Shown here: positions 10,557 to 36,649 of the stretch, one piece after another
Numbering within the stretch: position 1 is the first letter of the stretch
Layout: each line of letters begins with the position of its first letter
From: Bilabrum cf. latius
Lineage: Eukaryota
DNA length: 37,439 bases
Direction: 5' to 3'
Assembly (NCBI GenBank): GCA_965178125.1
Contig: OZ237772.1
Span: 558,001 to 595,439 of the forward strand
Program-made: the position numbers and the translations under genes
The notes under the pieces: generated by a model
Database searches by the model: none
What the model saw: the letters and a program-made list of their open reading frames with translations, nothing else
Told to the model about the DNA's origin: nothing

Positions 10557-11030
10557 TGCCCCTGTGCGCCCGTTCTAATTGGGGCCAGTCGTTGGCCTTG
10601 GCTCACCCGATAGTCCGAGTTACCTGCATATTGCTGCCCCCAAGAGGCTGTCTGGCCGATGCACCCGAAGCTGCTTCAGCTGGACGCCAGACTGGCACGG
10701 GGTATTTGGCTGAATTCGGAAAGTCGGGTTTGAGACTATTATGTTTGTTTGCAGTGTGTGTGAGTCGGGCCTATGACAGGCCGCGAGCCGGCTTCTGCTG
10801 GCTTGCTGGCCTTCGGTTCTGGATTGACGGGTACTTCGGGTCTTCGTTGGCGGGGTTGGGCATGAGGCTTGAGCTGTGGTAGCTCTATGCTGCTGCTACT
10901 CGGCCGCATGTGCCCGATGGCACCTGCGTGCAGCCAGTTGGACCCTTTTGCCGCATTCCAGATCCGGTTTGCTTTTGCTTTGGCTTTTGAGATTCTTACA
11001 CGTGGTCTGCTTCGGTTCAATGCTTGTATT

Positions 11031-12836: not shown

Positions 12837-12875
12837 TCTGCTACAATTGACACAGATGCCACCCAGGCAACTTGT

Positions 12876-13892
12876 TTACAATCGTTCCCTAGCCTCGCCT
12901 TGCACGGGCTACCACGCCTTCACCCAGTCGATCACGTGCTCTGCCGGCCAGACGGCGTCTGGGTTGAGCCATGGCGGGTAGTACCACGCCACGGCGGTGT
13001 TGAGGATCATGTGCATGGGCCATTGAGGCACAGGGTACGATGGTCGAGTTCGGGTGTGATACACCTATCCGTCTACATGAAATGCAAGCGAGTCTTTGTC
13101 CCAGTCGACTCCGTATTCGTGGAAAGTGCCGCTCAGGTCAACCGTGGGATCCTACAGTGGGGGCCAGGCAGCGCCGGGCAACTCCTGCTAGTTGCTGCCG
13201 CAAGCCTTGCCCCACCGGAAAGATCCAAACACGCGATTTAGAACAGGGTTGCCGGTGTATTCCATGATGTCAATCTCGCCGTACTTTGGCCAGCAACAGT
13301 GGTCACTGCTGTTCGTCCCAGGGCAGCTAGACGGTTCGGGCATGAGCCAGTGGGCCGGCCACGCTCCTGTAGAATTCTAAGCCGGTAGCTAAGCACGCAC
13401 AACAATTCGACCGTATGCTTGTGCCCACTTTCCTTTGGTGTCGATCCAGCCGCTGGTATAGTTGTACAGCTTGCCTTGCCGATCCCGAACTTGCTGCCTG
13501 CATTTGCGAGTTTCGATACGAAGAAGTCCTCCAGACACTCGGATGGCACTTGCCACATACAGCTGTAACTCAGCATCACCGTGAGTGCAATTGTTCCCTA
13601 CGGTCCACGTGGACTAATTTAGTTGCGATCCTTCGAAATTGTCCTCGAAAGTAAGCTGCCAACCAGACTTCTTCACACTGCGATCGGACTCTTGTTGTTT
13701 CGAGTCTAGCAATGATAGCTTGTATCCAGATAATACTGCTTCCATCTCATCACTTGCGCGCATGCTATCAGATGGGAGCTGTCCAATTGTACCTGCCTGC
13801 GAACTGCAGTACGCGAGTACGCTAAGTGTAAGATACAAGAGAGCCACGGCAAATTGGCAGCAAACTCCGAAGTTAACAATGTATGCCGCCAT
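12876..13892 (-). CDS. Secreted glycoside hydrolase family 16 (laminarinase/beta-1,3-glucanase-like), ~338 aa, seven internal TAGs
   Basis: One frame gives a signal peptide, WQLTFEDNFEG, ELQLY, YTSGWIDT, YGRIVVRA*LP, WPAHWLMP, catalytic GEIDIME, FHEYGVDW, FHVDG*, ILNTAV and IDWVKAW*. TAGs at 13616, 13391, 13379, 13190, 13154, 13067 and 12911; ends TAA 12878-12876. Mostly missed by the standard-code ORF track. Confidence 0.93.
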
Positions 13893-14373
13893 CTGCAAAT
13901 GTTGTGAGGATGAGAATAGGCGTTTATTAGTGATGATAAGCCAGCAAACTTTGGTATTCTAGATCTAGTTTCTCTAGGCCTGGGCAAAAAGAGAGTGAGG
14001 ACAAATCCTACGCAAAAGTAAGAAAACCCACCGGTGCATGTGGTGCATGGCTATTTCAAGTAAAATACAGCGGATTGCATACAAAATGACCAAAATGGTC
14101 CTTGCGATTCAACCAAATGGCTCCATCCATGGCCCTCCCAAACCATCAACCAAATGGACCACGCACACTGTGGAACCATCCACAAGCTCGTGTTACAGGC
14201 CACCCCCCATTAATATAGCTGTGCTGGGGGGTGGCCCGGGCACTGCCCGGATTCTAAGTTAGTGACCCGGTAGCAGTTCTTACATCACGTCCTTGCTGTT
14301 TAATTGCCATTCCCTGCAATCACGGCCAGTCTTGAGTCGGCTGTGGGTCTGATGTTGCCGCATACGTACTTTG

Positions 14374-14917: not shown

Positions 14918-17900
14918 TATCTGGGGGTCATGTTAGGATCGGGGCAGACCCTTTTTTTGACCAAAAAATAAAACGCCGCAAATTATATATATTTAGATAG
15001 CCCTTGATCTGTAGATATCCGTAAAAATTTTGTCTAGGGTCGATTTCGCAATATTAAGCGAGATACGCGGAGGTATAGGGTCACCATGTGAGCACCAATT
15101 TTGAAGTGCCAATTTGGGTTGTATGTGGATCGATTGGACTGTGCATGCGTGTATGTGGTTGTTCCCTGTGGCCATCAACGTAGAATACACCGCTCGTGTG
15201 CCCTGTCAGCCCCTCGGCGGCGCCGGTTCCGCAGGCAGCTTGAAATGGCTTGTGCGAGCGGTTTCGCCAAGGGGTCGATCCGGAGTCGATATTGTCAGGC
15301 CCTATCTGACGCGTCTCGATGCGTAGATATCCGTAAAAATTTTGTCTAGGGTCGATTTCTCAATATTAAGCGAGATACGCGGAGGTATAGGGTTGGCACA
15401 TGGGCGTGAGGGCGGCTACTCAGGGGCTGTGTGAGCGGGCCTGTTTGGGTTGTATGTGGATCGATTGGACTGTGCATGCGTGTATGTGGTTGTTCCCTGT
15501 GGCCATCAACGTGGAATACACCGCTCGTGTGCCCTGTCAGCCCCTCGGCGGCGCCGGTTCCGCAGGCAGCTTGAAATGGCTTGTGCGAGCGGTTTCGCCA
15601 AGGGGTCGATCCGGAGTCGATATTGTCAGGCCCTATCTGACGCGTCTCGATGCGTAGATATCCGTAAAAATTTTGTCTAGGGTCGATTTCTCAATATTAA
15701 GCGAGATACGCGGAGGTATAGGGTTGGCACATGGGCGTGAGGGCGGCTACTCAGGGGCTGTGTGAGCGGGCCTGTTTGGGTTGTATGTGGATCGATTGGA
15801 CTGTGCATGCGTGTATGTGGTTGTTCCCTGTGGCCATCAACGTGGAATGCATTGCTCATGTGCCCTGTCAGCCCCTCGGCGGCGCCGGTTCCGCAGGCAG
15901 CTTGAAATGGCTTGTTCGAGCGGTTTCGCCAAGGGGTCGATCCGGAGTCGATATTGTCAGGCCCTATCTGACGCGTCTGGATGCGTAGATATCCGTAAAA
16001 ATTTTGTCTAGGGTCGATTTCTCAATATTAAGCGAGATACGCGGAGGTATAGGGTTGGCACATGGGCGTGAGGGCGGCTACTCAGGGGCTGTGTGAGCGG
16101 GCCTGTTTGGGTTGTATGTGGATCGATTGGACTGTGCATGCGTGTATGTGGTTGTTCCCTGTGGCCATCAACGTGGAATACACCGCTCGTGTGCCCTGTC
16201 AGCCCCTCGGCGGCGCCGGTTCCGCAGGCAGCTTGAAATGGCTTGTGCGAGCGGTTTCGCCAAGGGGTCGATCCGGAGTCGATATTGTCAGGCCCTATCT
16301 GACGCGTCTGGATGCGTAGATATCCGTAAAAATTTTGTCTAGGGTCGATTTCTCAATATTAAGCGAGATACGCGGAGGTATAGGGTTGGCACATGGGCGT
16401 GAGGGCGGCTACTCAGGGGCTGTGTGAGCGGGCCTGTTTGGGTTGTATGTGGATCGATTGGACTGTGCATGCGTGTATGTGGTTGTTCCCTGTGGCCATC
16501 AACGTGGAATTCATTGCTCATGTGCCCTGTCAGCCCCTCGGCGGCGCCGGTTCCGCAGGCGGCTTGAAATGGCTTGTTCGAGCGGTTTCGCCAAGGGGTC
16601 GATCCGGAGTCGATATTGTCAGGCCCTATCTGACGCGTCTGGATGCGTAGATATCCGTAAAAATTTTGTCTAGGGTCGATTTCTCAATATTAAGCGAGAT
16701 ACGCGGAGGTATAGGGTTGGCACATGGGCGTGAGGGCGGCTACTCAGGGGCTGTGTGAGCGGGCCTGTTTGGGTTGTATGTGGATCGATTGGACTGTGCA
16801 TGCGTGTATGTGGTTGTTCCCTGTGGCCATCAACGTGGAATACACCGCTCGTGTGCCCTGTCAGCCCCTCGGCGGCGCCGGTTCCGCAGGCAGCTTGAAA
16901 TGGCTTGTGCGAGCGGTTTCGCCAAGGGGTCGATCCGGAGTCGATATTGTCAGGCCCTATCTGACGCGTCTGGATGCGTAGATATCCGTAAAAATTTTGT
17001 CTAGGGTCGATTTCTCAATATTAAGCGAGATACGCGGAGGTATAGGGTTGGCACATGGGCGTGAGGGCGGCTACTCAGGGGCTGTGTGAGCGGGCCTGTT
17101 TGGGTTGTATGTGGATCGATTGGACTGTGCATGCGTGTATGTGGTTGTTCCCTGTGGCCATCAACGTGGAATTCATTGCTCATGTGCCCTGTCAGCCCCT
17201 CGGCGGCGCCGGTTCCGCAGGCGGCTTGAAATGGCTTGTTCGAGCGGTTTCGCCAAGGGGTCGATCCGGAGTCGATATTGTCAGGCCCTATCTGACGCGT
17301 CTCGATGCGTAGATATCCGTAAAAATTTTGTCTAGGGTCGATTTCTCAATATTAAGCGAGATACGCGGAGGTATAGGGTTGGCACATGGGCGTGAGGGCG
17401 GCTACTCAGGGGCTGTGTGAGCGGGCCTGTTTGGGTTGTATGTGGATCGATTGGACTGTGCATGCGTGTATGTGGTTGTTCCCTGTGGCCATCAACGTGG
17501 AATACACCGCTCGTGTGCCCTGTCAGCCCCTCGGCGGCGCCGGTTCCGCAGGCAGCTTGAAATGGCTTGTGCGAGCGGTTTCGCCGAAGGGTCGATCCGG
17601 AGTCGATATTGTCAGGCCCTATCTGACGCGTCTGGATGCGTAGATATCCGTAAAAATTTTGTCTAGGGTCGATTTCTCAATATTAAGCGAGATACGCGGA
17701 GGTATAGGGTTGGCACATGGGCGTGAGGGCGGCTACTCAGGGGCTGTGTGAGCGGGCCTGTTTGGGTTGTATGTGGATCGATTGGACTGTGCATGCGTGT
17801 ATGTGGTTGTTCCCTGTGGCCATCAACGTGGAATACACCGCTCGTGTGCCCTGTCAGCCCCTCGGCGGCGCCGGTTCCGCAGGCGGCTTGAAATGGCTTG

Positions 17901-19005
17901 TGCGAGCGGTTTCGCCAAGGGGTCGATCCGGAGTCGATATTGTCAGGCCCCATCCGACGCGTCTGGATGCGTAGATATCCGTAAAAATTTTGTCTAGGGT
18001 CGATTTCTCAATATTAAGCGAGATACGCGGAGGTATAGGGTTGGCACATGGGCGTGAGGGCGGCTACTCAGGGGCTGTGTGAGCGGGCCTGTTTGGGTTG
18101 TATGTGGATCGATTGGACTGTGCATGCGTGTATGTGGTTGTTCCCTGTGGCCATCAACGTGGAATTCATTGCTCATGTGCCCTGTCAGCCCCTCGGCGGC
18201 GCCGGTTCCGCAGGCGGCTTGAAATGGCTTGTGCGAGCGGTTTCGCCAAGGGGTCGATCCGGAGTCGATATTGTCAGGCCCTATCTGACGCGTCTGGATG
18301 CGTAGATATCCGTAAAAATTTTGTCTAGGGTCGATTTCTCAATATTAAGCGAGATACGCGGAGGTATAGGGTTGGCTGTGTGGAGTGGGCTAGTGATATG
18401 CATGGTTTGCGTGACAATGAGGATAGTCTTGAATTTGTGCATTTCAATGCTCCCCCTCTTCGGCTTCTGCTGCTGCGGCCGCTTGGCGGGCATCCAGGAC
18501 TCCTGAGATGTAGGCCATGCGCTGCTCCAAGCGTTCCAGTAGCCAGTCTGCATTCTCGCCTTCACGGACATCGCACAGCCGGACCTGGTTTCCAGCTTTG
18601 CGCTTCTGCTTCCCGATCCTCTTGGAGTTGTCCTTGTACTTTTTGACCTCCGACACGGTGATCGGAGCTGCACCTACGGCCGCAGCTTGAGGTGCTGGCG
18701 GGACTGGTGCTTGACCTGCAGCTCCTGCAGCAGCTTGAGGTGCTGGCGGGACTGGTGCTTGACCTGCAGCTCCTGCAGCAGCTTGAGGTGCTGGTGGTGC
18801 CGGTGCTGGACCTGCAGCTCCTGCCGCAGCTTGTAGTGCTGGTGGTGCTGGGGCCGGGGCTGGGGCCTGGGATTTCCCGCGACGAGCTCTTAGGCGACCA
18901 TTCGAGCGCCCTTTGCGGCTCTGCATACCTGATGCATGCATCTCCGCCTCCTCCTCTGCCTTCTCTTCGTCGAAATCAGATCCCTCCTCGTCGTTCCCGG
19001 AGTCG
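14918..19005 (-). mobile_element. Telomere-inserted element family A, distally truncated
   Basis: Flanked by telomere tracts; starts TATCTGGGGGTCATGTTAGGATCGGGG; contains a 331-bp array and a minus-strand ORF cut by the next telomere tract. Confidence 0.75.
15011..18376. repeat. 331-bp tandem satellite: one 312-bp variant, nine full units and a partial unit
   Basis: GTAGATATCCGTAAAAATTTTGTCTAGGG recurs at 15011, 15323 and then every 331 bp to 18302. Confidence 0.97.
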
Positions 19006-19007
19006 TA
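18444..19007 (-). CDS. 5'-truncated family A ORF: acidic segment, four 16-aa APAPPAPQAAAGAAGQ-type repeats, basic/helical C-terminus
   Basis: Frame is open from the telomere junction (YDSGNDEEGSDFDEEKAEEEAEMHAS...) to TGA 18446-18444; no upstream stop. Confidence 0.65.
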   Translation of the reverse strand, partial: YDSGNDEEGSDFDEEKAEEEAEMHASGMQSRKGRSNGRLRARRGKSQAPAPAPAPPALQAAAGAAGPAPAPPAPQAAAGAAGQAPVPPAPQAAAGAAGQAPVPPAPQAAAVGAAPITVSEVKKYKDNSKRIGKQKRKAGNQVRLCDVREGENADWLLERLEQRMAYISGVLDARQAAAAAEAEEGEH

Positions 19008-19454: not shown

Positions 19455-20762
19455 TATCTAATATAAAGTCAGGGACAGGGTCGGGGAAAAAATATTTTCA
19501 TCTTCATTTTTTTGTCGAAAATGTGCCCTCTGCGATCTCAGCAACTAGAATAGGTATGAAGATGATTCAATTTGTTTTGGGACGGCCTAGGGCCATATCA
19601 TGGGGCAAATGTTCCCCAGGTTCCGTTTTGACCGAGCGGCGACGATACTGGCTGATGAAGATTTACATGCCGAAAATGTGCCCTCTGCGATCTCAGCAAC
19701 TAGAATAGGTATGAAGATGATTCAAACTGTTTTGGGACGGCCTAGGGCCATATCATGGGGCAAATGTTCCCCAGGTTCCGTTTTGACCGCGCGGCGACGA
19801 TACTGGCTGATGAAGATTTACATGCCGAAAATGTGCCCTCTGCGATCTCAGCAACTAGAATAGGTATGAAGATGATTCAAACTGTTTTGAGACGGCCTAG
19901 GGCCATATCATGGGGCAAATGTTCCCCAGGTTCCGTTTTGACCGCGCGGCGACGATACTGGCTGATGAAGATTTACATGCCGAAAATGTGCCCTCTGCGA
20001 TCTCAGCAACTAGAATAGGTATGAAGATGATTCAAACTGTTTTGGGACGGCCTAGGGCCATATCATGGGGCAAATGTTCCCCAGGTTCCGTTTTGACCGC
20101 GCGGCGACGATACTGGCTGATGAAGATTTACATGCCGAAAATGTGCCCTCTGCGATCTCAGCAACTAGAATAGGTATGAAGATGATTCAAACTGTTTTGG
20201 GATGGCCTAGGGCCATATCATGGGGCAAATGTTCCCCAGGTTCCGTTTTGACCGCGCGGCGACGATACTGGCTGATGAAGATTTACATGCCGAAAATGTG
20301 CCCTCTGCGATCTCAGCAACTAGAATAGGTATGAAGATGATTCAAACTGTTTTGGGACGGCCTAGGGCCATATCATGGGGCAAATGTTCCCCAGGTTCCG
20401 TTTTGACCGCGCGGCGACGATACTGGCTGATGAAGATTTACATGCCGAAAATGTGCCCTCTGCGATCTCAGCAACTAGAATAGGTATGAAGATGATTCAA
20501 ACTGTTTTGGGACGGCCTAGGGCCATATCATGGGGCAAATGTTCCCCAGGTTCCGTTTTGACCGCGCGGCGACGATACTGGCTGATGAAGATTTACATGC
20601 CGAAAATGTGCCCTCTGCGATCTCAGCAACTAGAATAGCCGTCCCCGTGAAATCTCCCAGAAATTTCTGGATTCCGGGTCCACATTTGCGACCCAACGAC
20701 ACTCAGGGTCAAATATATCTAAAACAAATGAGTGGAATATAACTATAACCACTAAATAGATT
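19455..20762 (-). mobile_element. Telomere-inserted short non-coding element B1
   Basis: Conserved terminus TATCTAATATAAAGTCAGGGACAGGGTCGGGG, about 7 x 155-bp units, then a ~125-bp unique end. Confidence 0.75.
19516..20638. repeat. 155-bp satellite variant B, ~7.2 copies
   Basis: GAAAATGTGCCCTCTGCGATCTCAGCAAC recurs with a 155-bp period. Confidence 0.97.
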
Positions 20763-21404
20763 TTAGGGTTAGGGTTAGGGTAGGGTTAGGGTTAGGGTTA
20801 GGGTTAGGGTTAGGGTTAGGGTTAGGGTTAGGGTTAGGGTTAGGGTTAGGGTTAGGGTTAGGGTTAGGGTTAGGGTTAGGGTTAGGGTTAGGGTTAGGGT
20901 TAGGGTTAGGGTTAGGGTTAGGGTTAGGGTTAGGGTTAGGGTTAGGGTTAGGGTTAGGGTTAGGGTTAGGGTTAGGGTTAGGGTTAGGGTTAGGGTTAGG
21001 GTTAGGGTTAGGGTTAGGGTTAGGGTTAGGGTTAGGGTTAGGGTTAGGGTTAGGGTTAGGGTTAGGGTTAGGGTTAGGGTTAGGGTTAGGGTTAGGGTTA
21101 GGGTTAGGGTTAGGGTTAGGGTTAGGGTTAGGGTTAGGGTTAGGGTTAGGGTTAGGGTTAGGGTTAGGGTTAGGGTTAGGGGTTAGGGTTAGGGTTAGGG
21201 TTAGGGTTAGGGTTAGGGTTAGGGTTAGGGTTAGGGTTAGGGTTAGGGTTAGGGTTAGGGTTAGGGTTAGGGTTAGGGTTAGGGTTAGGGTTAGGGTTAG
21301 GGTTAGGGTTAGGGTTAGGGTTAGGGTTAGGGTTAGGGTTAGGGTTAGGGTTAGGGTTAGGGTTAGGGTTAGGGTTAGGGTTAGGGTTAGGGTTAGGGTT
21401 AGGG
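20763..21404 (+). repeat. Internal telomeric tract 3
   Basis: TTAGGG hexamers with one TAGGG and one TTAGGGG variant. Confidence 0.99.
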
Positions 21405-21937
21405 TATCTAATATAAAGTCAGGGACAGGGTCGGGGAAAAAATATTTTCATCTTCATTTTTTTGTCGAAAATGTGCCCTCTGCGATCTCAGCAACTAGAA
21501 TAGGTATGAAGATGATTCAAACTGTTTTGGGACGGCCTAGGGCCATATCATGGGGCAAATGTTCCCCAGGTTCCGTTTTGACCGAGCGGCGACGATACTG
21601 GCTGATGAAGATTTACATGCCGAAAATGTGCCCTCTGCGATCTCAGCAACTAGAATAGGTATGAAGATGATTCAAACTGTTTTGGGACGGCCTAGGGCCA
21701 TATCATGGGGCAAATGTTCCCCAGGTTCCGTTTTGACCGCGCGGCGACGATACTGGCTGATGAAGATTTACATGCCGAAAATGTGCCCTCTGCGATCTCA
21801 GCAACTAGAATAGCCGTCCCCGTGAAATCTCCCAGAAATTTCTGGATTCCGGGTCCACATTTGCGACCCAACGACACTCAGGGTCAAATATATCTAAAAC
21901 AAATGAGTGGAATATAACTATAACCACTAAATAGATT
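21405..21937 (-). mobile_element. Telomere-inserted short element B2 (copy of B1 with ~2.2 satellite units)
   Basis: Same two ends as B1, five fewer 155-bp units. Confidence 0.75.
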
Positions 21938-23315: not shown

Positions 23316-23376
23316 TATCTATTATAAAGTCAGGGACAGGGTCGGGGAAAAATATTTTCATCTTCACTTTTTGACA

Positions 23377-25183
23377 AAATCCTGCGGGATACGATCTCGG
23401 CAACCACAGGAGATATGAAGACCGTTCAAATTGCGTTGGGACGGCCTAGGGCCACATCATTGGCCAAATGTTCCTCAGGTTCCGCTTTTGACGCGCGGCG
23501 CCAATATTGGGCCTTGAAGATTTTCATGCTGAAATCCTGCGGGATACGATCTCGGCAACCACAGGAGATATGAAGACCGTTCAAATTGCGTTGGGACGGC
23601 CTAGGGCCACAACATTGGCCAAATGTTCCTCAGGTTCCGCTTTTGACGCGCGGCGCCAATATTGGGCCTTGAAGATTTTCATGCTGAAATCCTGCGGGAT
23701 ACGATCTCGGCAACCACAGGAGATATGAAGACCGTTAAAATTGCGTTGGGACGGCCTAGGGCCACAACATTGGCCAAATGTTCCTCAGGTTCCGCTTTTG
23801 ACGCGCGGCGCCAATATTGGGCCTTGAAGATTTTCATGCTGAAATCCTGCGGGATACGATCTCGGCAACCACAGGAGATATGAAGACCGTTAAAATTGCA
23901 TTGGGACGGCCTAGAGCCACATCATTGGCCAAATGTTCCTCAGGTTCCGCTTTTGACGCGCGGCGCCAATATTGGGCCTTGAAGATTTTCATGCTGAAAT
24001 CCTGCGGGATACGATCTCGGCAACCACAGGAGATATGAAGACCGTTCAAATTGCGTTGGGACGGCCTAGGGCCACATCATTGGCCAAATGTTCCTCAGGT
24101 TCCGCTTTTGACGCGCGGCGCCAATATTGGGCCTTGAAGATTTTCATGCTGAAATCCTGCGGGATACGATCTCGGCAACCACAGGAGATATGAAGACCGT
24201 TCAAATTGCGTTGGGACGGCCTAGAGCCACATCATTGGCCAAATGTTCCTCAGGTTCCGCTTTTGACGCGCGGCGCCAATATTGGGCCTTGAAGATTTTC
24301 ATGCTGAAATCCTGCGGGATACGATCTCGGCAACCACAGGAGATATGAAGACCGTTCAAATTGCGTTGGGACGGCCTAGGGCCACATCATTGGCCAAATG
24401 TTCCTCAGGTTCCGCTTTTGACGCGCGGCGCCAATATTGGGCCTTGAAGATTTTCATGCTGAAATCCTGCGGGATACGATCTCGGCAACCACAGGAGATA
24501 TGAAGACCGTTCAAATTGCGTTGGGACGGCCTAGAGCCACATCATTGGCCAAATGTTCCTCAGGTTCCGCTTTTGACGCGCGGCGCCAATATTGGGCCTT
24601 GAAGATTTTCATGCTGAAATCCTGCGGGATACGATCTCGGCAACCACAGGAGATATGAAGACCGTTCAAATTGCGTTGGGACGGCCTAGGGCCACAACAT
24701 TGGCCAAATGTTCCTCAGGTTCCGCTTTTGACGCGCAGCGCCAATATTGGGCCTTGAAGATTTTCATGCTGAAATCCTGCGGGATACGATCTCGGCAACC
24801 ACAGGAGATATGAAGACCGTTCAAATTGCGTTGGGACGGCCTAGGGCCACATCATTGGCCAAATGTTCCTCAGGTTCCGCTTTTGACGCGCGGCGCCAAT
24901 ATTGGGCCTTGAAGATTTTCATGCTGAAATCCTGCGGGATACGATCTCGGCAACCACAGGAGATATGAAGACCGTTAAAATTGCATTGGGACGGCCTAGG
25001 GCCACATCATTGGCCAAATGTTCCTCAGGTTCCGCTTTTGACGCACGGCGCCAATATTGGGCCTTGAAGATTTTCATGCTGAAATCCTGCGGGATACGAT
25101 CTCGGCAACCACAGGAGATATGAAGACCGTTCAAATTGCGTTGGGACGGCCTAGGGCCACAACATTGGCCAAATGTTCCTCAG
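23377..25183. repeat. 155-bp satellite variant C, ~11.7 copies
   Basis: AAATCCTGCGGGATACGATCTCGGCAACC recurs with a 155-bp period; colinear with variant B. Confidence 0.97.
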
Positions 25184-25220
25184 ATTCATTGTACTTCATT
25201 CAGTGCAAGTATGGCGTATT

Positions 25221-27502
25221 GAAACCTACTCGGGGGAGGTTTCAAAACCTACCCAGGGCGGTTTCAAAACCTACCCAGGGCGGTTTCAAAACCTACCCAG
25301 GGCGGTTTCAAAACCTACCCAGGGCGGTTTCAAAACCTACCCAGGGCGGTTTCAAAACCTACCCAGGGCGGTTTCAAAACCTACCCAGGGCGGTTTCAAA
25401 ACCTACCCAGGGCGGTTTCAAAACCTACCCAGGGCGGTTTCAAAACCTACCCAGGGCGGTTTCAAAACCTACCCAGGGCGGTTTCAAAACCTACCCAGGG
25501 CGGTTTCAAAACCTACCCAGGGCGGTTTCAAAACCTACCCAGGGCGGTTTCAAAACCTACCCAGGGCGGTTTCAAAACCTACCCAGGGCGGTTTCAAAAC
25601 CTACCCAGGGCGGTTTCAAAACCTACCCAGGGCGGTTTCAAAACCTACCCAGGGCGGTTTCAAAACCTACCCAGGGCGGTTTCAAAACCTACCCAGGGCG
25701 GTTTCAAAACCTACCCAGGGCGGTTTCAAAACCTACCCAGGGCGGTTTCAAAACCTACCCAGGGCGGTTTCAAAACCTACCCAGGGCGGTTTCAAAACCT
25801 ACCCAGGGCGGTTTCAAAACCTACCCAGGGCGGTTTCAAAACCTACCCAGGGCGGTTTCAAAACCTACCCAGGGCGGTTTCAAAACCTACCCAGGGCGGT
25901 TTCAAAACCTACCCAGGGCGGTTTCAAAACCTACCCAGGGCGGTTTCAAAACCTACCCAGGGCGGTTTCAAAACCTACCCAGGGCGGTTTCAAAACCTAC
26001 CCAGGGCGGTTTCAAAACCTACCCAGGGCGGTTTCAAAACCTACCCAGGGCGGTTTCAAAACCTACCCAGGGCGGTTTCAAAACCTACCCAGGGCGGTTT
26101 CAAAACCTACCCAGGGCGGTTTCGAAACCTACCCAGGGCGGTTTCAAAACCTACCCAGGGCGGTTTCAAAACCTACCCAGGGCGGTTTCAAAACCTACCC
26201 AGGGCGGTTTCAAAACCTACCCAGGGCGGTTTCAAAACCTACCCAGGGCGGTTTCAAAACCTACCCAGGGCGGTTTCAAAACCTACCCAGGGCGGTTTCA
26301 AAACCTACCCAGGGCGGTTTCAAAACCTACCCAGGGCGGTTTCAAAACCTACCCAGGGCGGTTTCAAAACCTACCCAGGGCGGTTTCAAAACCTACCCAG
26401 GGCGGTTTCAAAACCTACCCAGGGCGGTTTCAAAACCTACCCAGGGCGGTTTCAAAACCTACCCAGGGCGGTTTCAAAACCTACCCAGGGCGGTTTCAAA
26501 ACCTACCCAGGGCGGTTTCAAAACCTACCCAGGGCGGTTTCAAAACCTACCCAGGGCGGTTTCAAAACCTACCCAGGGAGGTTTCAAAACCTACCCAGGG
26601 AGGTTTCAAAACCTACCCAGGGCGGTTTCAAAACCTACCCAGGGCGGTTTCAAAACCTACCCAGGGCGGTTTCAAAACCTACCCAGGGCGGTTTCAAAAC
26701 CTACCCAGGGCGGTTTCAAAACCTACCCAGGGCGGTTTCAAAACCTACCCAGGGCGGTTTCAAAACCTACCCAGGGCGGTTTCAAAACCTACCCAGGGCG
26801 GTTTCAAAACCTACCCAGGGCGGTTTCAAAACCTACCCAGGGCGGTTTCAAAACCTACCCAGGGCGGTTTCAAAACCTACCCAGGGAGGTTTCAAAACCT
26901 ACCCAGGGCGGTTTCAAAACCTACCCAGGGCGGTTTCAAAACCTACCCAGGGCGGTTTCAAAACCTACCCAGGGCGGTTTCAAAACCTACCCAGGGAGGT
27001 TTCAAAACCTACCCAGGGAGGTTTCAAAACCTACCCAGGGAGGTTTCAAAACCTACCCAGGGAGGTTTCAAAACCTACCCAGGGAGGTTTCAAAACCTAC
27101 CCAGGGAGGTTTCAAAACCTACCCAGGGCGGTTTCAAAACCTACCCAGGGCGGTTTCAAAACCTACCCAGGGCGGTTTCAAAACCTACCCAGGGCGGTTT
27201 CAAAACCTACCCAGGGCGGTTTCAAAACCTACCCAGGGCGGTTTCAAAACCTACCCAGGGCGGTTTCAAAACCTACCCAGGGCGGTTTCAAAACCTACCC
27301 AGGGAGGTTTCAAAACCTACCCAGGGCGGTTTCAAAACCTACCCAGGGAGGTTTCAAAACCTACCCAGGGAGGTTTCAAAACCTACCCAGGGAGGTTTCA
27401 AAACCTACCCAGGGAGGTTTCAAAACCTACCCAGGGAGGTTTCAAAACCTACCCAGGGAGGTTTCAAAACCTACCCAGGGAGGTTTGAAACCTACCCTAG
27501 GT
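25221..27502. repeat. 22-bp minisatellite GGTTTCAAAACCTACCCAGGG(C/A), about 100 copies
   Basis: 22-bp period with no spacers. Confidence 0.98.
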
Positions 27503-27763
27503 GTGGGTTTGGGAATCCAGTGGTTATTGACCGATATTCAATGTTGTGGCTCGTTCTACGTAGCCATATGTATGCGTTAACCTCCTTGGTCGATACATCG
27601 CTTTGACATCAGGTATTCGTTGGCTTATAGTCAAGACTAAATAGATTGCGTCCTGGCTCCTACTATCCCGTCCTAACGGGTCACTGGCTGGCACTCTGGC
27701 AAGCTCCTCTCACAAGCTGGCCCAGCTGCCACTGACCTCAATTGGTATCCGCCTGGCTGCTTT

Positions 27764-29299
27764 TCACTCGTTATCGGAGGAGGGTTCCGCATCGACAGCT
27801 GCCAGGAGCGCCTCAACAGCGTCCACGTCTGCTGCATTGAGATCTCCTTCCGCCGTCTTCTCGAGGGCCGTCATCAGGCCTACGAGCGTGCCCAACCCGT
27901 CGTCCCTCTCTTGAATTGTTTCCTGCACGTCCTCGAGCATGTCGTCGAGAGTTCGGCTGACGCCCAGCGCTATGTCATCGCAGGCAGCGAGGATGCGGTC
28001 CACCAGGTGCCGCTGCTAGTCGGTGAAGCCGTTGTCATCCACTCCACCGTCGTTCTCAGAGTCGTCTTGCTGGTTCTGGGCCTCGTTCTCTTCTTCCTCA
28101 TCCAGCTCGTCCTGATCCTCCTCGTCCTGCTGCACGAGTTCTATCGGAGCCTCATCCTCGTCCTCTTCATCGGCTGCGTCTGCGTGGTATCGATCACCGA
28201 TCTCCTCTTCATCCTCCTCAGAGTCCTGTCGAGGCAGTGATGCTGCTGCTCCACTCCTTGCGCCTCTTGCTCCCCTCTTGTCCTGGCCAACGGCGTGGCG
28301 AGCTCCTCCGCCATAGCCCGGTTGGAGAATGGGCGATCGCTTGTGCTGTATCTTAGCCCGAGGTGCCGCTTCAGTCGCCTTCCTGCGCTCCGGTTCTGCC
28401 GGTTGCGCACCTTCATCCCTCGGCTTTCCCTTTGACTTTCCCTTTGACTTGCCCGCGGCCTTGGTCCTGGCCTTCAATTTGGCCTTTGCCTTTTCCCTGG
28501 CCTTGGCCTCCGCTCTCCGCTTGGGGCCGAGTAGGTCGTTGTTCAGTCGCTCGGTCTATGAGTCGCTGGACTCTGAGCCGTCTGAATCTTGCTCGCCTCG
28601 TTTCCTCTGGGCCTTGTAGGCACTGTGGTCCGCGACACCGTCGTCGGGGTCGTCCTCGTCGTCGTCGACCATGGCACTCCGTTTGTCCTTGCCAGCACGG
28701 GGTGCTCCACTCGGCGAAGCAGCAGCGGCTCCCGCAGAAGCATCTTGGTCCCCTGCGGCTGCCGCGGCAGAGTCCTTGACTGCCATGTCAAACACGTCTT
28801 GGAACACAGCCTGCATGCCTCCACGCGCACGCACAGAGGCTTTCCCAGCTCCGTAGTCGCAGACGAACTTGATCGCGGTCTTGTAGTTCCTCCGCAAGCC
28901 ATCCATGCCTGCCTTGAACCAAGGATTGTGGCTGGTAGAGTAGCCGCTGTCGCGCAGGCCCATGAGCATCTAATTCATCTTGCGGTAGCCTGGCGAGCTG
29001 GTGCCGCTAGTTGATGCAGCCGGATATAGGCGGTGACTCAGCACCTTCAGCATGTCAGGCGGCAGATCGGACTCATTCAGGTCCAGCATGGCATCCACGC
29101 AGGCTTTGATGCCCTCTTTCTTGGTCCCCTAGTAGTGCTCGGTAGACCCGCAGAGTAACCCGCAATCTTGGTGGAGGCCCACGAGGGAGATCAGCAGGAC
29201 TTGCTTGGCAGCAGACGTGCTGACGCCTGAAGCCAGGGCAGCCACGACGGGGCGGGAGGCCTTGGTGTGCTTGACGCTGTAGCTCTTTGCGGCGGCCAT
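27764..29299 (-). CDS. Element ORF1, 511 aa, unknown: globular N-terminus, Lys/Ala-rich and Asp/Glu-rich middle, helical/coiled-coil-like C-terminus
   Basis: Four same-frame track ORFs joined by TAGs at 29131, 28972, 28558 and 28018. ATG 29299 (MAAAKSYSVKHTKA), TGA 27766-27764. The C-terminal part is conserved in copies D1 and D2. Confidence 0.8.
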
Positions 29300-29517
29300 A
29301 GTACTCTGCGGTGCTGGGGGAACACGGGTAAGGCCACGAACAGGCGCTTGGATGCGGCAGCGAACACGGACATGAGACCCAGGGAGTCTCCAGGGCAAGC
29401 TCGAGGGCAAAGAAAAAGAAGGCCACGACCCCGCGCACTCGGTCTCAGACCCGGGACCCATGATGTTAGGTCGATCCCCCAGTCGTGGGGGGGCGGACCC
29501 CAGCCCAGAAAAAAATT

Positions 29518-29606
29518 AAAAAAGATCGCCCCAACGGGAATCGAACCTCGGGGGTAGGCCTGGGTGCGATTACCAACCGTACGCAATACCACTACACCAC
29601 CACAGC
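29518..29606 (-). ncRNA. tRNA-like Pol III unit (degenerate, anticodon-loop-like TTGGTAA); not a canonical tRNA
   Basis: A box TGGTGTAGTGG (29599-29589) at +8, B box GGTTCGATTCC (29547-29537), followed by T6 and T7 runs. Acceptor, D and T stems pair poorly. Confidence 0.6.
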
Positions 29607-30180
29607 AACCCACGCGAAACCGAAAAAAAAATACAGATTCGCATCAAAAGTGCACGCAACTTGCACTTGTCACGCCGAAACCTACCCGTTCACCCAACGA
29701 GCAGCGCGAAATCAGAAACACTCATATTGCGCTCCTTGTATTCAATTGCAGAGGCGCATACTTGGCATATAGCTACTATAGCATATTGTGCATACAACCC
29801 TAAAGCAAACGTGAGTCAAATCGATGGGGTATGCGTGGGGATTGCCTTGCGCAATGCGCTTGCTGCAACGTGGTTCAGACGTTTGGCTCAATTGCGCGAC
29901 GGCAAGCACTCGTTGGAACTAATCTCGCGCATATTATCAAATAATATAACATACTGCAAACAATTGCGCGGCGATATATAGGCTGCGCGCCCAATGCTCA
30001 CTTTGCTTGCGGCAGGTGTGCTGCGACAACATTTGTGGTGGCCCGGATCAGGTTGCGGAACCTGATGCGCGGCACCGCCGTGACGAGTGCGCCACCAGGG
30101 AACAACGCATCGTACCATCATACTAATCACATCCCAAGTATATTATATATCCTTGTGGCATCTCTGTCCGCAGTCTGGTC

Positions 30181-32436
30181 ATGGCGCAGTCCACGTACGA
30201 CGCCACCAAGCATGTGAAGGCTCTCGACTACCTTCGGGCCTTCCTGGACCGCCGCGCGAAGGGCTACGCTCAGAACCCGCATCGCGTGCGCATCGGAGTC
30301 CCAGGGCCACTTCAACCAGGAGGTGCCGCCCTGCCTGGCCCGCCGGCCGGCGAGGCGCAGGCCCAGATCCCGGCCCAGGTGGGGCCAGCGCCAGGCGGCC
30401 ATGCCGCCGGGGGGGGCGATGCGGCAGGCCTGCCGGCCCCCGCCCCAGCCATCGGCGAGCATGCTCCGGAGCCCCAGCACCAGCAGCAAGAGGGCGCCCA
30501 CCAACCACCACCTGGTGCAGCTCTTGCTGCTGGCCAGCAGGCGATGGCCGCCGCCCCGCCCCAGCACCCCGCTGGTCCGGGTGCCAACCTGCCGGTCCCA
30601 GGAGGCTTGCAGCCCGAGCCGCCAGCTGGCGATGCCGACGCCTTCCTCCCGATCCCGGAGCCCCAGCAGGAGCCTGCAGGTGGGCCAGCCGGCGTCGGTC
30701 CGGCCCCTCCAGCAGCCGAGCAGCAGCCAGCTGCCCAGGCTGCCCAGCACCAACTCGTCCCTGGGCCCGTGCCTCTCGCCGAGGTGCCCGTCCTGGCCGG
30801 GGTCGGCGCAGGGGAGGACGCGATGGAGGACGACGAGCCCCCAGAAGCGGTCCAGGCCATCTTCCTCGGGCGCCAAGCCGCCCACGCGGCCACCCAGGCA
30901 GCTCGGCAGGCCATGGTCTGGGATGCTCAGGGCCAGCAGCCGCTCTTCGGGGCAGAGGGAGGAGCGCCCGAGCTGCCCATCCCCGGAGTCGTGTTCGCTG
31001 CCGGTGCAGAGGCAGCCGGCGCCCAAGGCGGTGGCGCAGGCCCAGACGCCGGAGGGGAGGTCGGTGCGCCACCCGTGCAGGCGTGGAACCTGGTCGTCGG
31101 CGACCCGGGGGGAGCGCAGGGAGAGGAGGCCCTGGCCGTCAACCTCCCGCCCGAGTACCGGTTCGGCATGCACGAGGCGACGGACGACCTCGCGCAGCAC
31201 CCCATGCTGGCCTACCACATATGGGAGGTGGACGACGAGGCGGTGCAGGCCCTGCAGGGCCTGCTGACCTGCGTTGGCAGGCAGGAGCTGCCTCCCGAGG
31301 TGTGGAGGGCGCTCGCACCTCCAGTGATGGAGACGGTGACCATGCAAGGCATGCGGCGCTGGTGGGCGTACCAGAGGCGCGCCGTTGTCGTCGTGGACAG
31401 CCTCCTGCATGCCGAGACTGATGCTGCCGGCGTGGAGCAGCGCGCGCAGAGGCGCGGCCGCTTTCTCGTGCAGCTCGTTGGCTGGACTGACATCACCAAG
31501 ATGCTGGAGAGCGAAGACCTGAACGAGGAAGGGGCTGCCTTCATTCGGAGCAAGCTGGCTTCGGTGGCGGTCAGCTTCTGGCCGTCTCCGATGCTGGCGG
31601 AGCCCGGGCTGCACAGCCACAAGCTCTCTCCGCTCCGCACGGAGTGGGATCACTACATCGAGTACAACCGCGTGGACGAGACGGTCTTTGACGCGGTCGG
31701 GCTCTCCGAGCAGCCTCCAGCGTTCGTGTACGAGGACGAGGACGAGGACGAGATGGAGGAGGGGCCGGCGGCGCAGCCGGCTGGGGCGGAGGAGCATGCA
31801 GAGGGCGACGAAGATGCCGGGTATGAGGCTGGAGAAGGCGAGTGGGGTGGGGAAGGCCAGTGGGACTCGGACGGAGACCAAGGCGGCGACGAGGAAGCGG
31901 ATGGTGGAGATCCTGCCGCGGGGGCTTTCGGAGCTGCGGATGCCGAGCTGGAAGGCGAGCCTGAAGAGGAGCAGGAGGCCGCCCCGGATGTGCTGCGGAA
32001 CCCACCAGACGGCATGGCGGCCCCCGTGGCGGTCCGCTCTGAGCTCTCCGATGTCGACGCCATGGAGGTGGTCGGGATCCTAGCCGGCGCCGGAGCCTCC
32101 CAGGAGGTGCAGACCAGCCCGTTCATGCTGGTGCTTGGGGGGCCGGTGTCACGGCTCCTGCTGGACGAGCCGCTGGACCAAGCCTACGGCCTCATCGACG
32201 TGCTGATTGGAGCCGACTCGGCGACGCAGGATGGGGTCCTCTGCGGGCGCAGGGGTCTGCAGAGGGACGGGGGGCAGATCAGGGTGCAGTCGGCCACGCA
32301 GCAGCACCAGCGCACCGAGGTGGAGACGAGCGGCTCATCCAGGCCCCGGCTCGGCTACAGCATCGTCTTCAACCGGCACATCCCCACGTAGGAGCGGGAC
32401 AATCCCGGCACGCCGAGGACTCACGGCGCGTACTAC
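30181..32436 (+). CDS. Element ORF2, >750 aa, unknown, 3'-truncated by the telomere tract
   Basis: 736-codon GC3-rich ORF. Its apparent stop is TAG 32389-32391; read-through (ERDNPGTPRTHGAYY) runs into TTAGGG with no TAA/TGA. Confidence 0.75.
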
Positions 32437-32713: not shown

Positions 32714-32775
32714 TATCTAATATAAAGTCAGGGACAGGGTCGGGGAAAAAATATTTTCATCTTCACTTTTTGTCA

Positions 32776-33534
32776 AAAATATGCAACATAGGATCTCGGT
32801 AACCACAGGAGATATGAAGACCGTTGAAACTGCATTGGGACGGCCTAGGTGCACAACATTGGCCAAATGTTCCCCAGGTTCCGTTTCTGCCGCGCGGCGC
32901 CAATATGGGCCAATGAAGATTTGCATGCTGAAAATATGCAACATAGGATCTCGGCAACCACAGGAGATATGAAGACCGTTGAAACTGCATTGGGACGGCC
33001 TAGGTGCACAACATTGGCCAAATGTTCCCCAGGTTCCGTTTCTGCCGCGCGGCGCCAATATGGGCCAATGAAGATTTGCATGCTGAAAATATGCAACATA
33101 GGATCTCGGTAACCACAGGAGATATGAAGACCGTTGAAACTGCATTGGGACGGCCTAGGTGCACAACATTGGCCAAATGTTCCCCAGGTTCCGTTTCTGC
33201 CGCGCGGCGCCAATATGGGCCAATGAAGATTTGCATGCTGAAAATATGCAACATAGGATCTCGGCAACCACAGGAGATATGAAGACCGTTGAAACGGCAT
33301 TAGGACGGCCTAGGTGCACAACATTGGCCAAATGTTCCCCAGGTTCCGTTTCTGCCGCGCGGCGCCAATATGGGCCAATGAAGATTTGCATGCTGAAAAT
33401 ATGCAACATAGGATCTCGGCAACCACAGGAGATATGAAGACCGTTGAAACTGCATTGGGACGGCCTAGGTGCACAACATTGGCCAAATGTTCCCCAGGTT
33501 CCGTTTCTGCCGCGCGGCGCCAATATGGGCCAAT
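32776..33534. repeat. 155-bp satellite variant D, ~4.9 copies
   Basis: AAAATATGCAACATAGGATCTCGG recurs with a 155-bp period. Confidence 0.96.
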
Positions 33535-33802
33535 GGTGAAGTTGATGTCTACATGAATTGCGTTGTTTGTGTATTGAAAGTATTGGTGGAGATGGCATTG
33601 CATTTGATTTATGGATTGTTTTGATATGAGGTACTGATTGGCTTACAGTCAAGACGAAGGGTTGGGCTAACCGAAACCCTCATACTGCGTCCTAACGGGT
33701 CACTGGCCGACACATTGGCAAACCCCTCTCACAAGCTGGCCCAGCAGCCACTGATCTCATGTGCCATTCTTCTGGCTGGCTCTCACTTCGCCTGGCTGCT
33801 TT

Positions 33803-34111
33803 TCACTCGTCATCGGAGGAGGGTTCCGCACCGACAGCTGCCAGGAGCGCCTCCACAGCGTCCACGTCTGCCGCATTGAGATCTCCTTCCGCCGTCTTCT
33901 CGAGGGCCGTCATCAGGTCTGCGAGCATGCCCAATCCCTGGTCCCTCTCTTGAATTGTTTCCTGCACGTCCTCGACCATGTCGTCGAGAGTCCGGCTGAC
34001 GCCCAGCGCGGTGTCATCGCAGGCAGCGAGGATGCGGTCCACCAGGTGCCGCTGCTAGTCGGTGAAGCCATTGTCCTCCACTCCACCGTCGTTCTCAGAG
34101 TCGTCTTGCTG
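33803..34111 (-). pseudogene. 5'-truncated ORF1 fragment (last ~100 codons)
   Basis: QDDSENDGGVEDNGFTD*QRHLVDRILAACDD...EPSSDDE, homologous to ORF1 of element C. Confidence 0.85.
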
Positions 34112-34801: not shown

Positions 34802-34863
34802 TATCTAATATAAAGTCAGGGACAGGGTCGGGGAAAAAATATTTTCATCTTCACTTTTTGTCA

Positions 34864-35622
34864 AAAATATGCAACATAGGATCTCGGTAACCACAGGAGA
34901 TATGAAGACCGTTGAAACTGCATTGGGACGGCCTAGGTGCACAACATTGGCCAAATGTTCCCCAGGTTCCGTTTCTGCCGCGCGGCGCCAATATGGGCCA
35001 ATGAAGATTTGCATGCTGAAAATATGCAACATAGGATCTCGGCAACCACAGGAGATATGAAGACCGTTGAAACTGCATTGGGACGGCCTAGGTGCACAAC
35101 ATTGGCCAAATGTTCCCCAGGTTCCGTTTCTGCCGCGCGGCGCCAATATGGGCCAATGAAGATTTGCATGCTGAAAATATGCAACATAGGATCTCGGCAA
35201 CCACAGGAGATATGAAGACCGTTGAAACTGCATTGGGACGGCCTAGGTGCACAACATTGGCCAAATGTTCCCCAGGTTCCGTTTCTGCCGCGCGGCGCCA
35301 ATATGGGCCAATGAAGATTTGCATGCTGAAAATATGCAACATAGGATCTCGGCAACCACAGGAGATATGAAGACCGTTGAAACTGCATTGGGACGGCCTA
35401 GGTGCACAACATTGGCCAAATGTTCCCCAGGTTCCGTTTCTGCCGCGCGGCGCCAATATGGGCCAATGAAGATTTGCATGCTGAAAATATGCAACATAGG
35501 ATCTCGGCAACCACAGGAGATATGAAGACCGTTGAAACTGCATTGGGACGGCCTAGGTGCACAACATTGGCCAAATGTTCCCCAGGTTCCGTTTCTGCCG
35601 CGCGGCGCCAATATGGGCCAAT
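34864..35622. repeat. 155-bp satellite variant D, ~4.9 copies
   Basis: Same unit as 32776-33534. Confidence 0.96.
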
Positions 35623-35890
35623 GGTGAAGTTGATGTCTACATGAATTGCGTTGTTTGTGTATTGAAAGTATTGGTGGAGATGGCATTGCATTTGATTTAT
35701 GGATTGTTTTGATATGAGGTACTGATTGGCTTACAGTCAAGACGAAGGGTTGGGCTAACCGAAACCCTCATACTGCGTCCTAACGGGTCACTGGCCGACA
35801 CATTGGCAAACCCCTCTCACAAGCTGGCCCAGCAGCCACTGATCTCATGTGCCATTCTTCTGGCTGGCTCTCACTTCGCCTGGCTGCTTT

Positions 35891-36649
35891 TCACTCGTCA
35901 TCGGAGGAGGGTTCCGCACCGACAGCTGCCAGGAGCGCCTCCACAGCGTCCACGTCTGCCGCATTGAGATCTCCTTCCGCCGTCTTCTCGAGGGCCGTCA
36001 TCAGGTCTGCGAGCATGCCCAATCCCTGGTCCCTCTCTTGAATTGTTTCCTGCACGTCCTCGACCATGTCGTCGAGAGTCCGGCTGACGCCCAGCGCGGT
36101 GTCATCGCAGGCAGCGAGGATGCGGTCCACCAGGTGCCGCTGCTAGTCGGTGAAGCCATTGTCCTCCACTCCACCGTCGTTCTCAGAGTCGTCTTGCTGG
36201 TTCTGGGCCTCGTTCTCTTCTTCCTCATCCAGCTCGTCCCCATCCTCCTCGTCCTGCTGCATGAGCCCTATCGGAGCTTCATCCTCGTCCTGCTCTCTGG
36301 CTGCGTCTGCGTCGTACCGACCACGGATCTCCTCTTCATCTTCGTCAGAGTCCTGTCGAGGCAGTGATGCTGCTGCTCCACTCCTTGCGCCACTTGCTCC
36401 CCTCTTCTCCTGGTCATCGGCGCGGCGAGCTCCTCCGCCATAGCCCGGCTGGAGGACGGACGTTCGTTCGGGCTGCCTCTTAGCCCTAGGCGCGGCTCCA
36501 GCCGCCTTCCGGCCCTTCGGTTCTGGCGGTTGGGTACCCACATCCCTCGACTTGCTCTTGGACTTGCCCTTGGGCTTGCCCGTCGACTTTCCCGCAGCCT
36601 TTGCCCGAGCCTCGGCCTTGGCCTTAGCCTTTTCCCTCGCCTTGGCTTC
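35891..36649 (-). pseudogene. 5'-truncated ORF1 fragment (last ~250 codons)
   Basis: EAKAREKAKAKAEARAK...QPGYGGGA...FTD*QRHLVDRIL...; open frame apart from TAG 36145-36143. Confidence 0.85.

What the first reader, a model, noticed from the sequence alone, without database searches (positions are those of the whole stretch)
27764..29299. Unknown ORF1 under apparent purifying selection, using the host's TAG code
Seen: element C and the D copies differ by many substitutions, often at third positions, yet keep the frame and the same TAG in GFTD*QRHLVDRIL. The protein has KAKAK/KGKSKGK basic and poly-acidic blocks and a heptad-like C-terminus. Family A has a non-homologous but compositionally similar ORF in the same position. 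Inference: an ORF1/gag-like nucleic-acid chaperone or telomere-targeting protein from a long-resident element adapted to the variant code.
Basis: partly seen in the sequence, partly recalled or inferred. Interest (0 to 1): 0.7.

Follow-up and report, generated by a model that had tools for sequence, protein, structure and literature searches.

The report
Orphan gene of telomere-embedded mobile elements
This gene encodes a conserved protein of unknown family that rides, back to back with a giant unknown gene, on DNA units stacked inside the telomeres of a single-celled eukaryote, and these units seem to spread without any recognisable copying enzyme of their own.

Summary
The ORF is real: 511 aa, read with the host's TAG=Gln code. 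C versus D gives dN/dS 0.40, but D1 and D2 are identical, so that is one comparison. Nine other alleles in the genome (67-80% identical) give ML omega 0.51 overall: 0.29 in residues 1-175, 0.72 in the linker, 0.94 in the C-terminal helix. The shared TAG sits in a homogenised segment and shows no adaptation. The gene is not an ORF1 ahead of a reverse transcriptase. It is the small partner of a divergent gene pair (with a 2,328-aa orphan) on units stacked head-to-tail between TTAGGG tracts. The units have a fixed inner end and random outer ends capped by new telomere repeats. Four families exist, one with the pair inverted. No RT hit lies in the arrays; the host has telomerase. Best reading: telomere-primed, DNA-level (BIR-like) mobile units, with this protein as a fast-evolving DNA/chromatin-binding specificity factor (inferred). 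An RNA-based HeT-A/Terminon-like route with RT supplied in trans remains open.

The parts
27764..29299 (-). ORF C, 511 aa (TAG=Gln), small gene of a family-B telomeric unit
28775..29299 (-). N-terminal folded domain (aa 1-175), about 8 helices; omega 0.29; homologous to family A/A2 small ORFs
28028..28774 (-). Low-complexity linker (aa 176-424) with acidic, basic (KAKAK/KGKSK) and acidic blocks; omega 0.72
27767..28027 (-). C-terminal acidic amphipathic helices (aa 425-511); homogenised between alleles, omega about 1; holds the invariant TAG428 (28016-28018)
23316..32436 (.). Unit C: family-B element from its fixed inner end to its telomere-capped truncation (9,121 bp)
23316..23375 (+). Fixed inner terminus joined in phase to TTAGGG; the commoner one-base variant of it occurs 191 times in the genome
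23377..25187 (.). 155-bp satellite array, subfamily-specific variant
25222..27497 (.). 22-bp array; an inverted array of the same type follows the large ORF in the longest C-type copy
29537..29599 (-). tRNA-like A box / B box block upstream of ORF C; not a tRNA; found only in these elements
29811..30173 (+). Probable 5'-UTR intron of the large ORF (GTGAGT...TACTAAT...CAG), retained in genomic copies
   Evidence: sequence; one joining contig in run X1
30181..32436 (+). 5' third of the divergent 2,328-aa orphan ORF, cut by telomere addition
32714..34111 (.). Unit D1: truncated family-B unit with the last 102 codons of an ORF C allele (33803-34111, -)
34802..36649 (.). Unit D2: truncated family-B unit with about 250 codons of the same allele (from 35891, -)
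14918..19007 (.). Family-A unit: own fixed end, 331-bp satellite, C-terminal half of the homologous small ORF (from 18444, -)
19455..21937 (.). Two short family-B units (terminus plus 155-bp satellite only) with an intervening telomere tract

Best explanation
ORF C is the small gene of a divergent two-gene cassette on a family of telomere-embedded mobile units (shown). A unit has a fixed inner end, a satellite, ORF C pointing inward and a 2,328-aa orphan pointing outward (shown). Units are added at chromosome ends when the G-rich telomeric 3' end is extended on a donor unit, starting at the fixed end. Copying stops at a random point and telomerase caps the new end; whole blocks are also recopied and recombined (end structure and recombination shown; the priming step is inferred). 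The donor is most likely DNA (break-induced-replication-like) rather than RNA (inferred). ORF C most likely acts in the nucleus as the unit's specificity factor. Its helical N-domain and basic tract would bind the unit's own satellite or terminus, and its acidic parts would engage chromatin or the large protein. This would keep the unit open in telomeric heterochromatin and tether it as a preferred template (inferred, not tested).
For: (1) Coding constraint: omega 0.29 in aa 1-175 (2dlnL 135) and 0.51 overall (2dlnL 90.5) on 9 alleles. 15 of 15 gap blocks in the ORF are multiples of 3, against 2 of 12 in the neighbouring non-coding DNA. (2) All 32 DNA matches lie within 50 kb of a contig end and point inward (lengths; the window's own end shown by its terminal repeats). 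The 4 family A/A2 matches are in end arrays mapped. (3) 163 of 178 units in 41 fetched array stretches start at one of four fixed junctions; 113 closed family-B units end at 48 different points, often with stuttered G/T-rich repeats. (4) DNA-level exchange: a 12.2-kb multi-unit block is triplicated with near-identical internal tract lengths, and the C-D1-D2 chain recurs on another chromosome. ORF alleles are mosaics (near-site incompatibility 0.42 vs 0.54 far; 0 of 1000 permutations). (5) Against a simple mRNA template: the two genes diverge from one central region; family T carries its pair inverted relative to the telomere; the large ORF's probable intron is kept (21 donors, 22 acceptors, 0 spliced forms in fetched ends; 0 spliced matches genome-wide). 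(6) None of 84 RVT_1 matches falls inside a mapped array, and the host has TERT. (7) ORF C alleles differ by dS 0.25-0.39 from C while their large ORFs differ by pS 0.03 or less, as expected of a swappable specificity module.
Against: No binding, localisation or mobility is shown. Purifying selection among copies within one genome is more typical of cis-acting retroelement proteins or of host genes than of trans-acting DNA-element proteins (general knowledge). Polarity, fixed inner end and telomere-capped truncation match RNA-primed elements equally well (Terminons, MoTeR). [quoted passage not shown] Intron retention is known in Penelope-like retroelements (recalled; only a reference title seen). 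The large ORF's chemistry is unknown, so a very divergent RT is not excluded, and a profile search can miss Athena-type RTs.
Confidence: 0.45

Rival explanations
1. The units are HeT-A/Terminon-like retroelements. An inward-reading RNA whose 3' end is the fixed terminus is reverse-transcribed onto the telomere by an RT supplied in trans (telomerase, a host LINE, or an unrecognised RT in the large ORF). ORF C is the Gag-like RNP and targeting protein.
For: Same polarity and truncation pattern as Terminons (PMC6431247 passages) and MoTeR (10.1101/845669 passages). HeT-A has Gag only and no pol (PMC5537684 passages). ORF C is sense on the strand that would be the template. A short terminal motif (TATC...GTCA...AGG(A/G)TCGG) is shared by families A, A2 and B. 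Cis-acting proteins would explain omega below 1. The genome has APE-type and RLE-type LINE RTs and TERT.
Against: No RT match lies in the arrays, and no YxDD-like motif is conserved among the large ORFs. The large ORF is antisense to the template in A and B but sense in T. No oligo(A) at the junction. No hammerhead or other Rfam family in 10 loci (100 kb) at gathering threshold. No CCHC knuckle. The RLE LINE near C37's left end is not in telomere repeats.
Confidence: 0.3
2. ORF C is a host-beneficial subtelomeric gene family (for example a telomere or chromatin protein), and the units are passive products of telomere recombination.
For: Intact, diversified alleles under selection, host-like TAG use, a spliceosomal-type intron in the partner gene and abundant recombination.
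Against: No copy outside end arrays was found by DNA or protein queries. Most units are cut before or inside the genes. Four families keep fixed, in-phase inner ends, which passive drift does not require.
Confidence: 0.15
3. The units descend from a small virus or linear plasmid that enters telomeres through its own telomeric repeats, as HHV-6 and Marek's disease virus do; ORF C is a nucleoprotein.
For: Two orphan genes, terminal repeat arrays, (TTAGGG)3 inside the distal 839-bp repeat and both cassette orientations. Herpesvirus telomere integration via telomeric repeats is described in PMC5537684 (passages).
Against: No PHROG family for 6 of 6 proteins; no relative in viral contigs; no capsid, polymerase or integrase gene native to the units; no fixed outer end found for A or B.
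Confidence: 0.1

Closest known systems
Saccharomyces Y' elements
   Same: ORF-bearing units between interstitial telomere tracts, internal tandem repeats, conserved ORFs, spread by BIR/recombination, no RT (PMC13177704 passages).
   Different: [quoted passage not shown] Here most units are so truncated, the genes are a divergent pair, and no helicase family was hit.
Magnaporthe MoTeR1/MoTeR2
   Same: Head-to-tail arrays in TTAGGG tracts, truncated copies capped de novo, BIR-copied blocks with identical junctions (10.1101/845669 passages).
   Different: MoTeR1 encodes an RT with a restriction-like endonuclease. No such element was found in these arrays, and the units here carry two selected orphan genes.
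Terminons / Athena Penelope-like elements of bdelloid rotifers
   Same: Long multi-ORF units, 5'-truncated by telomeric repeats, head-to-tail chains, accessory coiled-coil ORFs (PMC6431247 passages).
   Different: Terminons carry an Athena RT and a 3' hammerhead, and their ORFs accumulate in an oriented manner. No RT or hammerhead was found here, and the ORFs diverge.
Drosophila HeT-A Gag/ORF1p
   Same: Telomere-specific element without pol whose protein is conserved (PMC5537684 passages).
   Different: HeT-A replaces telomerase and has TART/TAHRE RT partners in the array. This host has TERT, no partner RT in arrays, and no sequence similarity to Gag was detected.
Arabidopsis VANDAL VANC proteins (functional analogue only)
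   Same: Element-encoded accessory proteins whose targets form tandem repeats that differ between related elements (PMC5735166 abstract).
   Different: No homology shown; VANDALs are Mutator-like (recalled) and not telomere-embedded; binding by ORF C is untested.

Membership tests
Non-LTR/Penelope-like ORF1 (gag-like) of a telomeric retrotransposon | Lies upstream of, and co-oriented with, an RT ORF in the same element | tested here: not met
   The only other large ORF is divergent, 2,328 aa, with no Pfam family
Non-LTR/Penelope-like ORF1 (gag-like) of a telomeric retrotransposon | CCHC knuckle, RRM or other ORF1 domain | tested here: not met
   0 Pfam families; Cys/His not conserved between families B and A
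Non-LTR/Penelope-like ORF1 (gag-like) of a telomeric retrotransposon | Gag- or ORF1-like fold; oligomeric coiled coil | tested here: inconclusive
HeT-A-type non-autonomous telomeric retroelement | Fixed centromere-facing end, variable distal truncation, head-to-tail arrays | tested here: met
HeT-A-type non-autonomous telomeric retroelement | RT-encoding partner element in the same arrays | tested here: not met
   0 of 84 RVT_1 matches inside mapped arrays; profile sensitivity and unmapped ends limit this
HeT-A-type non-autonomous telomeric retroelement | RNA intermediate bound by the protein | not testable with these tools
   Only unstranded contigs were available
Terminon/Athena | Athena RT in the unit | tested here: not met
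Terminon/Athena | 3' hammerhead ribozyme next to telomeric repeats | tested here: inconclusive
   No Rfam hit in 10 loci at gathering threshold and no stable shared fold of the termini; divergent hammerheads can be missed
MoTeR (RLE non-LTR) | RT plus restriction-like endonuclease element inserted in TTAGGG tracts | tested here: not met
   RLE LINEs exist in the genome, but the one nearest an end is not flanked by telomere repeats
Y' element | Helicase ORF | tested here: not met
   No Pfam family in B, A (partial) or T large ORFs
Y' element | Tandem units separated by telomere tracts and exchanged by recombination | tested here: met
Captured ordinary host gene | Parent gene outside the telomeric arrays or in databases | tested here: inconclusive
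   None found by DNA query, family A2 protein query or databases; a genome-wide protein search with ORF C itself was not obtained

The most novel reading that the evidence does not exclude
These are a new class of autonomous telomere parasites. A two-gene cassette (a roughly 2,200-aa enzyme of unknown chemistry plus the ORF C specificity protein with an unassigned helical fold) recognises a short terminal motif and drives one-ended copying onto telomeric 3' ends. It uses no RT, helicase or DDE transposase and leaves host telomerase to heal the other end.
Probability: 0.3. Interest if true: 0.88.

Novelty: new variant of a known kind. Interest (0 to 1): 0.68.

Why it matters
Most telomere-embedded elements compared here either carry an RT or have an RT-bearing partner in the array (HeT-A/TART, MoTeR, Terminons), or carry a helicase (Y'). 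Here four families occupy many chromosome ends of a telomerase-positive protist, with selected genes of no recognisable family. If the units move by their own proteins, the large ORF is a candidate new mobilising enzyme and ORF C a new DNA-recognition module that diversifies together with its satellite. If they move by RNA, telomerase or a LINE RT must be copying multi-kilobase templates onto telomeres in trans. Either case makes the link between telomerase healing, ALT-type copying and selfish elements testable in one organism. The TAG=Gln point alone is ordinary.

Tried and rejected
SEQUENCE SEARCHES. Pfam: 0 families for ORF C and for the B, A, A2 and T proteins. PHROGs: 0 of 6. Word-indexed protein search: nothing for ORF C, for residues 640-2328 of the large ORF, or for the N-domain alignment among longer proteins. 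Full HMMER scan of 1.84 billion proteins: 2 hits, both short fragments of this same family. PDB sequence profiles: 0 hits for the N-domain; best E 0.31 for the large-ORF core. Viral and metagenome contigs: no relatives. Language-model look-alikes (ESM Atlas) remain untested.

STRUCTURE. Single-sequence AF2 was poor (pLDDT 48). The 12-sequence N-domain model reached pLDDT 80.5 in 1 of 5 models, the others about 50. It found no match at E 0.001 or better in PDB or viral libraries, and best Z 3.4 in the wide search; this neither excludes a known fold nor shows a new one. The large protein was not folded. The trimer prediction for the C-terminal helix gave no answer (score 0.02).

EXPRESSION. No RNA holder was listed. 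Runs X1 and X3 are only guessed to be RNA; their contigs cover ORF C and leave gaps in the intergenic region, which I do not count as evidence of expression.

REJECTED IDEAS. The family-T 2,167-aa ORF as the missing RT (no RVT_1 match, no conserved DD motif). The tRNA-like block as a UAG-reading tRNA (ARAGORN 0 genes in 16 sources, Rfam 0). Homology of the T small ORF to ORF C (HHalign probability 0.2% or less). A shared variant-repeat signature carried in with new units (seen only in whole-block duplicates). The invariant TAG428 as codon adaptation. Earlier scan notes: none found. PMC5850863 was not held.

Full report
OBSERVATION. The window is a right chromosome end: host genes to about 14.6 kb, then TTAGGG tracts alternating with satellite-bearing units. 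27764-29299(-) reads as 511 aa with TAG=Gln. The host uses that code: TAG aligns with Gln in CCT-eta and at one GH16 position, and RT frames are interrupted mostly by TAG. C versus D2 gives dN/dS 0.395 (bootstrap 0.25-0.62) over 248 codons. D1 equals D2 over 576 nt, so the window offers one comparison.

SELECTION, WITH MORE ALLELES. A 701-nt DNA query found 32 matches in the genome, all within 50 kb of contig ends and pointing inward. Ten distinct alleles with open frames were aligned; one lacks its first 23 residues through telomere capping. The nine others are 67-80% identical to C. A codon model on 9 of them (the near-duplicate b and the fragment D2 left out) gave omega 0.51 overall (2dlnL 90.5 against omega=1). 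By region: 0.29 for aa 1-175 (135), 0.72 for aa 176-424 (9.6) and 0.94 for aa 425-505 (0.02). Tree-free pairwise values show the same order: 0.41, 0.61, 0.99. All 15 gap blocks in the ORF are multiples of three, versus 2 of 12 in adjacent non-coding DNA. The alleles are recombinant mosaics (0 of 1000 permutations), so tree-based values are approximate. TAG428 is shared by all 11 sequences, but in a low-divergence segment. At position 110, TAG in C faces CAG in 8 of 9 other alleles. TAG makes up 4 of 25 Gln codons, within the host range. The element tolerates the code; no special adaptation is visible.

THE PROTEIN. Layout: helical N-domain (aa 1-175), acidic-basic-acidic linker, acidic amphipathic C-terminal helices. 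Full family A and A2 ORFs (533-539 aa) share the N-domain: HHalign 89.2%, E 2.2e-6, 156 columns. A profile built from A/A2 alone finds ORF C at E 2.6e-7 among the six-frame peptides of the fetched ends. With these homologues AF2 gives an eight-helix domain at pLDDT 80.5 in one of five models. Database searches returned only two fragments of this same family; the other blanks are listed under Tried and rejected.

THE ELEMENT. The longest family-B units read: TTAGGG tract, fixed terminus, 155-bp satellite, ORF C (inward), about 880 bp, a 2,328-aa ORF (outward), further repeats. The exact terminus pattern occurs 191 times (control 0). In 41 fetched array stretches (chosen from hits, not at random; one internal, one on a small contig), 163 of 178 units begin at one of four fixed junctions: B 132, A 18, A2 6, T 7. 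The 113 closed B units end at 48 different points, often with stuttered telomerase-like additions. The 15 exceptions are short tracts inside the 839-bp repeat (5), foreign tails at contig termini (5), a tract inside an element (1), starts inside a B unit (3) and one unassigned. Family A has the same layout, and its large ORF is homologous to B's (22% over 1,193 columns, E 3e-22). Family T's large ORF is weakly related (E about 1e-4 over about 100 aa) and has its own divergent small ORF, with the cassette inverted relative to the telomere. T's small ORF is not detectably related to ORF C. Four full B large ORFs have pN/pS 0.21-0.36 at pS 0.03 or less, roughly tenfold less diverged than the ORF C alleles beside them. 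One contig of run X1 (guessed RNA; the tool says probably DNA; depth 4.9; laid at 85% likeness) joins 29810 to 30174 at GT..AG. The skipped DNA has a GTGAGT donor, TACTAAT branch site and CAG acceptor, and no spliced copy was found in the genome. I read this as a retained 5'-UTR intron and a hint, not proof, of transcription.

MECHANISM. Shown: fixed inner end, random outer end, de novo telomere caps, block duplication with conserved tract lengths, mosaic alleles, host TERT, and no RVT_1 match inside mapped arrays among 84. Inferred: the telomere's 3' end primes copying at the fixed end, copying aborts, and telomerase heals. DNA templating is favoured because neither mRNA of a divergent pair spans the unit, the pair occurs in both orientations, and DNA-level copying is evident. 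It is not established. Terminons and MoTeR show the same polarity and truncation, Y' elements are not truncated this way, and selection among copies would suit a cis-acting retro protein. For ORF C I commit to a nuclear DNA/chromatin-binding specificity factor that binds the unit's own repeats or terminus (0.45 for the whole model). A Gag-like RNP role with RT in trans is the main rival (0.3), then a host gene family (0.15) and a viral or plasmid origin (0.1).

COMPARISON WITH THE LITERATURE. I saw passages of PMC13177704 (Y'), 10.1101/845669 (MoTeR), PMC6431247 (Terminons) and PMC5537684 (HeT-A), and the abstract and outline of PMC5735166 (VANC). No supplements were read, and those of the bioRxiv paper are closed. 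The units work like Y'/MoTeR/Terminon arrays but fail the defining-enzyme test of each. Seven literature searches (listings only) showed no paper describing these elements; subscription journals are largely outside that library.

VERDICT. The gene is a selected orphan, but the partner of a giant orphan on RT-less telomere-embedded units, not a classical ORF1. New variant of a known kind, with a 30% chance of being a new class of mobile element. Interest 0.68.

Noticed in passing
L107:597-5186 (G000:C28 left end): AT-rich Polinton-like stretch (integrase plus chromodomain, DUF5906 helicase/primase-like, type B DNA polymerase) sits inside a family-A2 unit and is cut by a telomere tract.
   Followed up: partly
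L102, L106, L116, L111, L115 (termini of C20R, C15L, C40L, C8R, C27R): Foreign DNA follows the last long telomere tract at five contig ends; in three the ORFs look bacterial by eye. Probably read chimeras, but end capture is not excluded.
   Followed up: no
window 29537-29599 (-): tRNA-like A and B boxes followed by T runs upstream of ORF C. 17 full and 3 partial matches, all in elements; absent from allele g. Possible TFIIIC insulator or small RNA.
   Followed up: partly
window 29300-29335 (-): Acceptor-like CCGCAG with a branch-like motif just before ORF C's ATG, mirroring the large ORF; a second 5'-UTR intron is possible, but no donor was identified.
   Followed up: partly
L088 (G000:C14 about 701-704 kb): An A/B unit array with telomere tracts lies in the middle of a 1.2-Mb contig: an old chromosome fusion or a mis-join.
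   Followed up: no
L105:1120-7620 and L101/L102 (family T): 10-kb units with a 2,138-2,167-aa orphan ORF. The two subfamilies are 57% identical in protein but 95% identical over the inner 1.46 kb; 7 matches, near contig ends where lengths are known; one subfamily ends in a repeat like the host's native subtelomeric repeat.
   Followed up: partly
L082:2224-5739: Intact-looking RLE-type non-LTR RT ORF about 8.5 kb inside the C37 left array, with 98-99% identical copies on C6; not flanked by telomere repeats.
   Followed up: partly
L037 (C14 right end, local 8593-8694): A 102-bp telomere tract replaces part of the intergenic region and the element resumes after it, suggesting healing followed by re-invasion.
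   Followed up: no
window 29678-29690 and 25222-27497: The AAACCTACCC core of the 22-bp array also occurs once in the shared promoter region.
   Followed up: no
window 349-14108: Host genes: MBOAT/DGAT-like membrane protein (by eye; no Pfam hit in the frame tested), FG-GAP protein with a long Ser/Pro/Thr repeat, and GH16 glucanase.
   Followed up: no
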